Shown here in pieces: positions 14,971 through 15,864 of a stretch of DNA of 29,348 bases. The translations under genes and the position numbers were made by a program. Source of the stretch: a virus; UHGV virus genome UHGV-0299458. The stretch is one strand, 5' to 3'. Numbering within the stretch: the first letter of the stretch is position 1; each line of letters starts with the position of its first letter. The notes beneath the pieces were generated by a model. That model was not told the origin of the DNA. It saw only the letters and a list, made by a program, of their open reading frames with translations, and did no database searches.

Positions 14971-15864
14971 CTAAATACGCACTTTAAGATAAGTCAGCCC
15001 CGGATGAAGCCAGTAAGCCGGCACTTTTTTAAAGGGTGGAGTATTAAAATCACGAAGAAGAGCCTCCCGCACAATTGCATCCTTATCAGCACCACTGGCC
15101 AGCGCTTCAATCTCAGCAGCTACCTGCAGATATCCCATGCAACGGCCAACGCGCTTCATCAGCCCCTGCTTTTTATTGTTCTTCAGGTAATCAATGGCAA
15201 ATTCAATGAGCTCCTCACTGTGCTGGTGCGATGGAGGTGTTACTTTCCCATTTTCTGAGATGGTTATTTTCCCAGCATCACCGGATACAACAAAGGATGG
15301 CCGGTTACACTCCCATTCCGGGTCACTGAAATTATCATTATGAATACTGAAACACTCTGCGAGATTTCTGCTCATCACTTTCCGACAATAATCGTCAAAC
15401 GCAGCAAACTGCTTTTCATCGCCAGAAGGCACCAATATCGACCATTTCTTATTCAGCTCAACGACGTAGCTCTCCAGTTTTTCAATACGTGATTCAACAT
15501 CATCTTTTTCTGACCGCAGTGTTGACGGCGGCATCTTCAGAGAACAAGTAATTCTTCCCGGTAGCTTTCCTTTGTAGGTTATCAACACATCCTGCGCCTC
15601 TAAAATTACGGGGCGCTTTTCCGGCAACGGACCATCCCCTTCACATAACCCGGCAGCAACATCCATGAAAAACTGCTTCGCCTGCTTTTTCGCCTCAGCT
15701 TCGTAAAACTCCAGCGTGGCACCTTCAGTACGGTCAAGACTAATCGCCACATCTGGCAACAACAGCGACGCTTGCCCGTCACCTTCCGGCTTCACAGTAA
15801 CAGTAACCTTATCCCCGTAATTATTTATCCCCTTAACAACCAGTTCATATTTTTTATTCATCAC
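14971..15864 (-). CDS. Hypothetical protein, 297 aa, no recognisable family; inserted between pinholin and endolysin
   Basis: Long ORF with Shine-Dalgarno (GGGGAGAG) and ATG 1 nt after the holin stop; no TM or signal peptide; composition visibly more AT-rich than flanking lysis genes. Confidence 0.75.
   Translation of the reverse strand: MMNKKYELVVKGINNYGDKVTVTVKPEGDGQASLLLPDVAISLDRTEGATLEFYEAEAKKQAKQFFMDVAAGLCEGDGPLPEKRPVILEAQDVLITYKGKLPGRITCSLKMPPSTLRSEKDDVESRIEKLESYVVELNKKWSILVPSGDEKQFAAFDDYCRKVMSRNLAECFSIHNDNFSDPEWECNRPSFVVSGDAGKITISENGKVTPPSHQHSEELIEFAIDYLKNNKKQGLMKRVGRCMGYLQVAAEIEALASGADKDAIVREALLRDFNTPPFKKVPAYWLHPGLTYLKVRI

What the first reader, a model, noticed from the sequence alone, without database searches (positions are those of the whole stretch)
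14971..15864. Unrecognised 297-aa protein wedged inside the lysis cassette, between pinholin and SAR endolysin
Holin, endolysin and spanins are normally contiguous. Here a 297-aa ORF starts 1 nt after the pinholin stop with its own Shine-Dalgarno and ends 36 nt before the endolysin, so it should be co-transcribed late from pR'. It has no TM segment or signal peptide and matches no family I recognise. Its composition is visibly more AT-rich than its neighbours, suggesting horizontal acquisition. From what I recall, cargo can sit in this operon (csp genes between holin and lysozyme in Qin; antirepressor-like genes between R and Rz in Stx phages), but this protein is none of those. Plausible roles are a lysis-timing regulator, an anti-defence factor expressed late, or an abortive-infection or exclusion function.
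Basis: partly seen in the sequence, partly recalled or inferred. Interest (0 to 1): 0.8.

Follow-up and report, generated by a model that had tools for sequence, protein, structure and literature searches.

The report
Long YdfR-family gene in lysis cassette
The "unrecognised" gene between the holin and the lysozyme is a long, two-module member of the common but functionally uncharacterised YdfR/DUF1327 prophage family, which sits in the same slot in E. coli K-12, so the layout is ordinary although what the protein does is still unknown.

Summary
The ORF is real: minus strand, 14971-15864, most likely starting at ATG 15861 (296 aa). It lies 4 nt after an S21-type class II holin and 36 nt before a lysozyme. 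It is soluble and moderately AT-rich. It is not unrecognised. Residues 1-101 match Pfam DUF1327 (4e-40), the full length matches phrog_1085 (2e-188), and NCBI names it "YdfR family protein". The window is 100% identical to E. coli Eco889. 57% of complete E. coli genomes carry DUF1327 DNA and 9% carry this long form. K-12 Qin reads essQ-ydfR-rrrQ, and many Stx and lambdoid phages read holin-YdfR-lysozyme. New here: the protein has a DUF1327 N-module, a helical hairpin and a conserved C-module (aa ~185-296). The C-module has no Pfam family, no structural match and only 25 representatives among 1.84 billion proteins. The modules occur fused, alone, or as adjacent genes in swapped order. Rare Salmonella relatives keep the architecture but sit between Q and the holin. 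RefSeq often truncates the long form to a 336-nt "pseudogene", yet the ORF is intact and the C-module is its most constrained part. The only functional lead is that K-12 YdfR residues 1-72 (47% identical) bind the RNase E catalytic half. Function remains unknown. Interest is low to moderate.

The parts
14971..15861 (-). Long-form YdfR-family gene (296 aa from ATG 15861; stop TAG 14971-14973). An alternative in-frame GTG at 15864 would give 297 aa.
   Evidence: ORF list and sequence. Pfam DUF1327 4e-40. phrog_1085 2.2e-188 over the full length. 100% identical to E. coli Eco889. Belongs to a 99%-identity cluster of 962 members. dN/dS 0.16-0.64.
15637..15861 (-). N-module, aa 1-75: DUF1327 domain, predicted as three beta-strands (aa 6-14, 18-26, 38-43) plus a long helix (aa 50-73). 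It is acidic (pI 4.8).
   Evidence: Pfam match on aa 2-101. AF2 pLDDT 65-89 over aa 1-70. 47% identical to K-12 YdfR aa 1-74, E 6e-21. K-12 YdfR aa 1-72 suffices for RNase E binding (PMC13232886).
15514..15636 (-). Linker, aa 76-116: basic (pI 9.4) and predicted disordered. Conserved among E. coli alleles as PEKRPVILEAQDVLITYKGKLPGRIT...
   Evidence: pLDDT 22-38. Alignment A1. pI. dN/dS 0.4-1.0.
15349..15513 (-). Helical hairpin or coiled-coil, aa 117-171 (helices aa 119-146 and 149-171). This is the most variable, mosaic part of the gene.
   Evidence: AF2 C-terminal model, pLDDT about 67-75. Insertions, deletions and replacements in alignment A1. Partial PHROG matches: phrog_36381 and phrog_2091.
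14974..15309 (-). C-module, aa 185-296: a three-stranded beta-meander plus four helices. Invariant residues are G239, R240, L245, Q246, A248, P276, K278, W284, P287 and Y291. H214 is nearly invariant. It has no Pfam family.
   Evidence: AF2 pLDDT 77-87. Invariant columns in A4. Only 25 representatives among 1.84e9 proteins. No PDB or BFVD structural match. Lowest dN/dS in the gene, 0.17-0.40. Left unannotated by PGAP.
15869..15876 (-). Shine-Dalgarno-like GGGGAGAG inside the last codons of the holin gene, 9 nt (GGAG core) upstream of ATG 15861.
   Evidence: Read directly from the sequence. The same holin-stop, 4 nt, ATG junction occurs in K-12 and in all E. coli phages inspected.
15866..16081 (-). 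S21-type class II holin (pinholin family), 71 aa, with a MYQM dual-start-like N-terminus.
   Evidence: Pfam Phage_holin_2_1 2e-32. PGAP 'class II holin family protein'. Maximum hydrophobicity 1.7.
14401..14934 (-). Lysozyme (R21/rrrQ-like), 177 aa. It has a weakly hydrophobic Ala/Gly-rich N-terminus compatible with a SAR domain and an E-x8-D-x5-T motif.
   Evidence: Pfam Phage_lysozyme 2.8e-24. PGAP names it rrrQ lysozyme. The motif was read from the translation.
13446..13904 (-). Rz i-spanin, with the embedded Rz1 o-spanin at 13508-13693 (lipobox LVVSAC).
   Evidence: Pfam Phage_lysis 4.5e-47. ORF list. PGAP 'lysis protein'.
18478..19299 (-). Q-type antitermination protein, which defines the start of the late operon containing the cassette.
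   Evidence: PGAP 'antitermination protein'. A terminator-like hairpin lies at 18397-18378 just downstream.

Best explanation
The gene encodes a long, two-module member of the YdfR/DUF1327 family. This family is a non-essential accessory protein of lambdoid prophages, made in the cytoplasm late in infection together with the lysis proteins.

Shown:
- Family membership.
- The conserved position, 4 nt after a class II holin.
- A soluble character.
- The modular architecture: a DUF1327 N-module, a disordered basic linker, a helical hairpin and a conserved C-module.
- Purifying selection.
- A fusion/fission relationship between the N- and C-modules.

Inferred mechanism:
- The N-module docks on the catalytic N-terminal half of host RNase E, on RNA, or on both, as reported for its K-12 homologue YdfR (aa 1-72, 47% identical).
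- The helical hairpin may oligomerise the protein.
- The C-module acts as a separate effector or partner-binding unit that works together with the N-module.
- The net effect would be to alter RNA decay at the membrane-bound degradosome during the late phase, for example by protecting the long late transcript or redirecting host RNA turnover. It would not carry out lysis itself.
For: Family and position:
- Pfam DUF1327 at 136 bits against a cut-off of 25.
- phrog_1085 matched over the full length.
- The NCBI name is YdfR family protein.
- K-12 Qin reads essQ-ydfR-rrrQ.
- Phages 86, Stx2_95, YYZ-2008, PhiR5_1, mEp460, HannyBb and 606R7 all read holin-YdfR-lysozyme.

Cytoplasmic and late:
- No hydrophobic segment.
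- No internal promoter or terminator.
- Q lies upstream.

RNase E lead (PMC13232886):
- A bacterial two-hybrid screen recovered YdfR aa 1-72.
- Full-length YdfR is positive with Rne1-597.
- Rne1-598-FLAG co-elutes with Strep-YdfR.
- The Strep-YdfR eluate contains DNase-resistant nucleic acid.
- The window protein is 47% identical over exactly this region.

The modules act together:
- They occur fused (44 proteins), or as adjacent genes in swapped order: holin, a 213-aa C-module protein, then a 75-aa DUF1327 protein.
- Distant Salmonella-type relatives keep the same N + coiled-coil + C architecture.

Selection: dN/dS is 0.16-0.64, lowest in the C-module.
Against: - The RNase E interaction has been shown only for the 103-aa K-12 protein, not for this one.
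- That interaction rests on two-hybrid and co-purification data from lysates, so RNA bridging is not excluded.
- Overproducing YdfR changed few transcripts and did not affect growth (PMC13232886).
- The N-module is acidic (pI 4.8), which is not typical of an RNA binder.
- The C-module has no detectable relative of known function, so its role is pure inference.
- Many alleles are truncated, mosaic or N-only. The long form is therefore dispensable and the locus may be partly decaying.
- No expression or translation data exist for this gene.
Confidence: 0.3

Rival explanations
1. It is a cytoplasmic lysis-timing regulator. The protein would bind the cytoplasmic face of the class II (pin)holin, or another lysis component, and tune when the holin triggers. 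This would be analogous to soluble antiholin cofactors.
For: - In every E. coli phage and prophage inspected, the gene starts exactly 4 nt after a class II holin stop and precedes the lysozyme. This implies co-expression and possibly translational coupling.
- Diverged relatives are also next to class II holin plus lysozyme cassettes.
- PMC13232886 cites an envelope-integrity screen that flagged ydfR.
Against: - In the diverged Salmonella-type loci the gene lies upstream of the holin, separated from it by other ORFs (two of them on the opposite strand). In two of the three loci the holin belongs to a different Pfam family, Phage_holin_2_3.
- Inducing K-12 ydfR did not affect growth (PMC13232886).
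- The envelope-screen phenotype could be a polar effect on the downstream lysozyme gene rrrQ (my inference).
- From my own knowledge, the paradigm phage 21 cassette runs S21-R21 with no such gene.
- N-only, C-only and truncated forms are all common.
Confidence: 0.2
2. It is conflict cargo. It would be a late-expressed anti-defence factor, or an exclusion or abortive-infection function, carried in a cargo hotspot of the late operon.
For: - AT-rich relative to its neighbours (GC3 46.5% against 59-68%).
- Patchy distribution, extensive module shuffling and allele mosaicism.
- The Q-to-lysis region holds other cargo such as stx, nanS-p, hicAB and iraM.
- The family is very narrow taxonomically, as is typical of arms-race genes.
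Against: - No hit to any PADLOC model or NCBIfam model.
- No promoter of its own and only 4 nt after the holin stop, so it should be silent in the lysogen. That argues against lysogen-protecting exclusion.
- From general knowledge, anti-defence proteins are usually made early, not together with the lysis genes.
- dN/dS is below 1 throughout, with no sign of diversifying selection in the conserved modules.
Confidence: 0.15
3. It is a decaying or functionless remnant. The long ORF would be a chance-preserved mosaic created by recombination among prophages, as suggested by the RefSeq pseudogene calls.
For: - PGAP marks the locus as an incomplete YdfR pseudogene in Eco889, CFSAN061770 and O104:H4.
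- Many truncated, N-only and fragment forms exist.
- Prophage genes are often under relaxed selection; dN/dS reaches 0.6-1.0 in the N-module and linker between close alleles.
Against: - The ORFs in all three 'pseudo' loci are intact, at 296 or 268 aa.
- The 99%-identity cluster has 962 members, and 496 complete genomes carry at least 80% of the gene.
- The C-module has dN/dS of 0.17-0.40.
- Relatives at 30-45% identity keep the architecture and ten invariant C-module residues.
- Deposited Stx phage genomes (phage 86, Stx2_95) carry the long form.
Confidence: 0.1

Closest known systems
E. coli K-12 YdfR (b1555, P76160), Qin cryptic prophage; Pfam DUF1327 (PF07041)
   Same: - Homologous N-module: 47% identity over aa 1-74, E 6e-21.
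- Identical genomic slot: 4 nt after the class II holin essQ and directly before the lysozyme rrrQ.
- Cytoplasmic, with no established function.
   Different: - K-12 YdfR is 103 aa, consisting of the N-module plus one short helix.
- The window protein is 296 aa, with an extra basic linker, a helical hairpin and a conserved 112-aa C-module that K-12 YdfR lacks.
- RNase E binding has been shown only for the K-12 protein (PMC13232886).
Long-form YdfR-family proteins of Stx phages (Stx2-converting phage 86 gp05, 268 aa; Stx2_95 BCI50300, 329 aa); PHROG phrog_1085
   Same: - Same N-module, C-module and position between holin S and lysozyme R.
- phrog_1085 aligns end to end, 296 of 296 positions.
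- 79-94% nucleotide coverage at 91-94% identity.
   Different: - The middle helical segment is replaced, deleted or expanded between alleles.
- Phage 86 carries an additional reverse-strand ORF before the lysozyme, which the window lacks.
- None of these proteins has been studied experimentally.
Split arrangement in other E. coli prophages, one of them stx-encoding: holin, a 213-aa C-module protein (P0084), a 75-aa DUF1327 protein, then lysozyme
   Same: - Same two modules in the same slot.
- The C-module shows dN/dS of 0.17 against the window.
   Different: - The modules are separate genes in the opposite order.
- The DUF1327 partner belongs to a diverged subtype with saturated dS.
- A reverse-strand 95-aa ORF follows.
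Phage-encoded RNase E modulators: phiKZ Dip/gp37 (PMC4980113); T7 gp0.7 kinase and T4 Srd (from my own knowledge)
   Same: This is a possible functional analogy only. Each is a phage protein that contacts the host RNA degradosome to reshape RNA decay during infection.
   Different: - No sequence or structural similarity was found.
- Dip binds the RNase E C-terminal scaffold (abstract of PMC4980113), whereas YdfR was reported to bind the catalytic N-terminal half (PMC13232886).
- From my own knowledge, those proteins come from virulent phages and act early in infection. This gene belongs to a temperate phage and is late.
- No effect of YdfR on RNase E activity has been demonstrated.
Other cargo inside lambdoid lysis cassettes: Ant/Bro-type antirepressor genes between R and Rz in Stx phages
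   Same: Non-lysis genes embedded in the lysis operon of the same phage group. They sit next to YdfR genes in phage 86, YYZ-2008 and L005.
   Different: - A different slot (R-Rz, not S-R).
- A different family (PF03374 ANT). The window protein has no Bro-N, KilA or ANT match.

Membership tests
YdfR / DUF1327 (Pfam PF07041) | Significant match to the family profile above Pfam's gathering score | tested here: met
   136.4 bits against a cut-off of 25, E 4e-40. Protein aa 2-101 align to profile positions 1-88 of 93.
YdfR / DUF1327 (Pfam PF07041) | Pairwise homology to the name-giving protein, E. coli K-12 YdfR | tested here: met
   BLASTP gives 47% identity over aa 1-74, E 6e-21.
YdfR / DUF1327 (Pfam PF07041) | Genomic position directly downstream of a class II holin and upstream of the lysozyme in a lambdoid prophage | tested here: met
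   Window: holin 15866-16081, gene 14971-15861, lysozyme 14401-14934. The same layout is found in K-12 Qin and in seven phages.
YdfR / DUF1327 (Pfam PF07041) | Binding to the N-terminal catalytic half of RNase E, the only reported biochemical property (PMC13232886) | not testable with these tools
   This needs two-hybrid, pull-down or complex modelling. Only the 47% identity across the binding region (aa 1-72) could be shown.
PHROG phrog_1085 (long-form YdfR, unknown function) | End-to-end match to the 296-position profile | tested here: met
   E 2.2e-188, 625.8 bits. Protein aa 2-297 align to profile positions 1-296.
   A Pfam scan at E <= 1 returns only DUF1327.
Holin / antiholin membrane lysis regulators | At least one transmembrane or SAR segment | tested here: not met
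   The maximum 19-residue Kyte-Doolittle mean is 0.75, against 1.7 for the adjacent holin. GRAVY is -0.40.
Known anti-phage defence systems (PADLOC-DB v2) | Match to any defence-protein model | tested here: not met
   The best hit is PbeC at E 0.018 and 11.3 bits over 60 residues, which is noise.
Any family with a solved structure | Sequence-profile or fold similarity to a PDB chain | tested here: not met
   - Profile searches: best E 0.08-0.12.
- Foldseek against PDB: best E 1.1.
- Foldseek against BFVD: best E 0.29.
- The N-module was not searched on its own, and afdb50 was unavailable.

The most novel reading that the evidence does not exclude
The long YdfR form would be a two-part phage effector aimed at the host RNA degradosome. 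The DUF1327 module would anchor it to the RNase E catalytic domain. The orphan-fold C-module, with invariant GR..G.LQ.AAE / PPFK / W..PG..Y residues, would carry a new activity or bind a second partner. That activity would stabilise the long late transcript or couple RNA decay to the moment of pinholin triggering. The fused and split (order-swapped) gene forms would then be a Rosetta-stone signature of a two-component system that annotation pipelines currently half-delete as a pseudogene.
Probability: 0.15. Interest if true: 0.6.

Novelty: already known. Interest (0 to 1): 0.3.

Why it matters
As an anomaly it does not stand. A YdfR-family gene between holin and lysozyme is the normal layout for a large group of E. 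coli lambdoid and Shiga-toxin prophages, including K-12 Qin.

Three things remain of value:

- **A widespread gene with no known role.** The family is present in more than half of complete E. coli genomes and is presumably co-expressed with the lysis genes, which lie downstream of stx in Stx prophages. Yet it has no known function. The 2026 RNase E interaction report makes a concrete hypothesis testable.
- **An uncatalogued module.** The conserved C-terminal module has no Pfam family and is a structural orphan. It is genetically linked to DUF1327 by fusion and fission, so the short, studied K-12 protein may be only half of the functional unit.
- **An annotation error.** RefSeq currently truncates the long form to a 336-nt pseudogene in the three RefSeq genomes inspected, including an O104:H4 strain. 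This hides an intact, constrained 185-residue coding region.

Tried and rejected
- **NCBIfam and PADLOC scans.** No meaningful hit.
- **Second model, aa 116-296.** A more diverse alignment gave pLDDT 72. Foldseek against PDB and BFVD found nothing below E 0.29. The afdb50 library was unavailable.
- **PDB sequence-profile searches with A1 and A4.** Noise only.
- **Internal duplication.** Both modules start beta-beta-beta-alpha, so I tested whether the C-module is a duplicated DUF1327. hhalign gave probability below 1%, so I rejected this.
- **A conserved reverse-strand partner ORF.** The reverse-strand ORFs that follow some YdfR genes are heterogeneous. Only phage 86 gp06 and one Salmonella ORF resemble each other, and the window has none. 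Rejected as a general partner.
- **Genome-contig scan with the C-module alignment.** The back-translated pattern was too narrow and found only three Escherichia/Shigella loci.
- **Literature.** 'DUF1327' finds one incidental paper. ydfR searches find only the RNase E paper as a functional study. No paper on accessory genes between S and R was found.
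Full report
**1. Observation**

The window contains an uninterrupted ORF at 14971-15864, on the minus strand. The finding did not give a strand. From the GTG at 15864 it is 297 aa. From the ATG at 15861 it is 296 aa.

The ATG is the start used in every annotated homologue, where the gene begins 4 nt after the holin stop. The holin stop TAA is at 15866-15868. 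A GGGGAGAG Shine-Dalgarno-like element lies at 15869-15876, inside the end of the holin gene.

- Upstream is a 71-aa S21-type class II holin (Pfam Phage_holin_2_1, 2e-32).
- Downstream is a 177-aa lysozyme (Phage_lysozyme, 2.8e-24). It has an Ala/Gly-rich N-terminus and an E-x8-D-x5-T motif.
- Rz and Rz1 follow.

The protein has no hydrophobic segment. Its maximum 19-residue Kyte-Doolittle mean is 0.75, against 1.7 for the holin. It is moderately AT-rich: GC and GC3 are both 46.5%, against GC3 of 59-68% in the holin, lysozyme and Rz. A consensus scan finds no convincing promoter or terminator between holin and lysozyme. So the physical description is correct.

**2. It is not an unrecognised protein**

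- Residues 2-101 match Pfam DUF1327 (PF07041) at 136 bits, against a cut-off of 25.
- The whole protein matches PHROG phrog_1085 end to end, E 2e-188, function unknown.
- The DNA is 100% identical to the chromosome of E. coli Eco889.
- 3084 of 5426 complete E. coli genomes contain DNA matching at least part of the gene (mostly the DUF1327 region), with a median of 2 and up to 8 places per genome.
- 496 of those genomes carry at least 80% of this long form.
- Protein databases hold a 99%-identity cluster of 962 members, and NCBI names these proteins 'YdfR family protein'.

The slot is also canonical. In E. coli K-12 the Qin cryptic prophage reads essQ (holin) - ydfR - rrrQ (lysozyme) - rzpQ/rzoQ. 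That is wrong, because cspB and cspF lie upstream of essQ.

The same holin, 4-nt gap, YdfR, lysozyme order appears in these phages:
- Stx2 phage 86
- Stx2_95
- YYZ-2008
- PhiR5_1
- mEp460
- HannyBb
- vB_EcoM-606R7

. A tblastn search of 50,697 phage records finds the N-module in 101 records, all E. coli lambdoid phages and mostly Stx phages.

**3. Anatomy**

Alignments and two AlphaFold2 models define four parts:
- **N-module, aa 1-75.** This is the DUF1327 domain. It is predicted with confidence as three beta-strands plus a long helix.
- **Linker, aa 76-116.** Basic and predicted to be disordered.
- **Helical hairpin, aa 117-171.** This is the most mosaic part of the gene. Insertions, deletions and replacements here account for alleles of 268, 287, 296 and 329 aa.
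- **C-module, aa ~185-296.** A three-stranded meander plus four helices, with pLDDT 77-87. Invariant residues are G239, R240, L245, Q246, A248, P276, K278, W284, P287 and Y291.

The C-module has no Pfam family. An exhaustive HMMER search of 1.84 billion representative proteins finds only 25 relatives. It has no significant match in the PDB by sequence profile or by Foldseek, and none in the viral structure library. It is not a diverged copy of the N-module.

**4. The two modules are genetically linked**

Among the 150 retrieved proteins, 44 carry both modules, 64 carry the C-module without a detectable E. coli-type N-module, and 29 carry the N-module only.

In several E. coli prophages, one of them stx-encoding, the same slot holds two separate genes in swapped order. 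The layout is holin, then a 213-aa C-module protein, then a 75-aa DUF1327 protein, then the lysozyme.

The most diverged relatives are 30-45% identical. They are rare Salmonella enterica proteins and unnamed assemblies. They keep the whole N + coiled-coil + C architecture. Their N-domains relate to DUF1327 at hhalign probability 85%, E 6e-6.

Those relatives lie between the Q antiterminator and the holin, not between holin and lysozyme. The conserved feature is therefore 'start of the Q-dependent late operon, next to a class II holin/lysozyme cassette', not the S-R gap itself.

**5. It is a real gene, and RefSeq mis-annotates it**

dN/dS is below 1 in all whole-gene comparisons, ranging from 0.16 to 0.64. 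Per module, only the linker reaches about 1.0 in two close-allele comparisons. The C-module is the most constrained part, at 0.17-0.40.

PGAP nevertheless annotates only the first 336 nt as 'YdfR family protein, incomplete, missing C-terminus' (a pseudogene). It does this in Eco889, CFSAN061770 and an O104:H4 strain, and leaves the C-module unannotated. The ORFs at those loci are intact, at 296 or 268 aa. This looks like an annotation artefact caused by the mosaic middle segment.

**6. Function**

No function is established for the family. The literature search found a single experimental study, PMC13232886 (RNA Biol 2026):
- K-12 YdfR was recovered in a bacterial two-hybrid screen.
- Residues 1-72 suffice for the interaction.
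- Full-length YdfR is positive with Rne1-597.
- Rne1-598 co-elutes with Strep-YdfR.
- The eluate carries DNase-resistant nucleic acid.
- Overproduction barely changes the transcriptome and does not affect growth.

The window protein is 47% identical to YdfR over exactly that region.

My best-supported explanation is a cytoplasmic, late-expressed accessory protein. Its N-module would dock on RNase E, on RNA, or on both, and its C-module would be a cooperating effector or partner-binding unit. I give this mechanism about 0.3. Only family membership, position, architecture, solubility and selection are shown. The RNase E step is transferred by homology from one study, and the role of the C-module is inference.

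The rivals are:
- **A cytoplasmic lysis-timing regulator (0.2).** The invariant coupling to the holin supports it. The relatives that lie upstream of the holin, in two of three loci next to a holin of a different Pfam family, weaken it, as does the lack of a growth effect.
- **Late-expressed conflict cargo (0.15).** Composition, mosaicism and narrow distribution fit. But there is no PADLOC hit, no promoter of its own and no diversifying selection.
- **A decaying remnant (0.1).** Intact ORFs, constraint on the C-module and conserved architecture argue against it.

The remaining probability is 'something else'.

**7. Verdict**

The claim of an unrecognised, unusually placed gene is not. This is a catalogued family in its usual place, so I rate the novelty as 'already known'.

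What this analysis adds is modest:
- The long form is a two-module protein.
- Its C-module is an orphan with no Pfam family, linked to DUF1327 by fusion and fission.
- The long architecture is conserved in the most diverged relatives and so may be the older form.
- RefSeq hides the C-module behind pseudogene calls.

Interest is 0.3. It is a reasonable target for a small functional study because the family is so common in Stx prophages, but a specialist would not find it surprising.

Noticed in passing
window 14974-15525 (-); L009 16340-16894; L018; L019: RefSeq/PGAP annotates only the first 336 nt of the long YdfR gene as a pseudogene ('incomplete; missing C-terminus') in Eco889, CFSAN061770 and O104:H4 FWSEC0009. 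About 555 nt of intact, constrained coding sequence (the C-module) is left unannotated.
   Followed up: yes
L005-L008, 5782-7847: A split, order-swapped arrangement in other E. coli prophages, one of them stx-encoding (L007): holin, a 213-aa C-module protein, a 75-aa diverged DUF1327 protein, a reverse-strand 95-aa ORF, then the lysozyme.
   Followed up: partly
L002 3818-4132 (-); L014 4807-5124 (-): Phage 86 gp06 and a Salmonella prophage ORF are both reverse-strand genes immediately after a long YdfR-like gene. They share a C-terminal ELSYLDC.WD...A..QK.R.FS.LS motif and have no Pfam family. Other reverse-strand ORFs at this position are unrelated to them, and one is DUF1883.
   Followed up: partly
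window 18085-18334 (-): Three tRNA genes lie directly downstream of the Q antiterminator: CAT (called Met by ARAGORN and Ile by PGAP), Arg-TCG and Arg-TCT. This arrangement is typical of Stx and lambdoid late leaders.
   Followed up: partly
window 17199-17388 (-): A strong Rfam match to the sRNA STnc100 (132 bits against a gathering score of 47), in the leader between Q and the holin.
   Followed up: no
window 16838-17173 (+), island about 16500-17250: An iraM (RssB anti-adaptor) gene lies on the strand opposite to the late operon, in a markedly AT-rich island (GC 0.31-0.40). It looks like a separate cargo insertion in the Q-holin leader.
   Followed up: no
window 16389-16592 (-): A 67-aa DUF1737 ORF. 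PGAP calls it an incomplete DUF1737 pseudogene. It looks like the N-terminal remnant of the nanS-p-like SASA esterase gene that occupies this position in related prophages.
   Followed up: partly
window 16120-16148 (-) and 18378-18397 (-): Two terminator-like hairpins with T-tracts lie on the late strand. One is just after Q (tR'-like) and the other is about 40 nt upstream of the holin start. Terminator-like sites in this region number 11, against 4.7 +/- 1.9 in shuffled sequence.
   Followed up: no
window 13916-14277 (-): Two small ORFs of unknown function lie between the lysozyme and Rz (PGAP calls them at 60 and 43 aa). One matches phrog_1115. This is a second cargo slot, where Stx phages carry ant/bro genes.
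   Followed up: no
window 12808-13134 (-): A 108-aa 'TonB family protein' (TonB_C-like, with a lipoprotein-like N-terminus) lies just after Rz/Rz1. It recurs after the lysis cassette in related prophages (L006, L008, L017).
   Followed up: no
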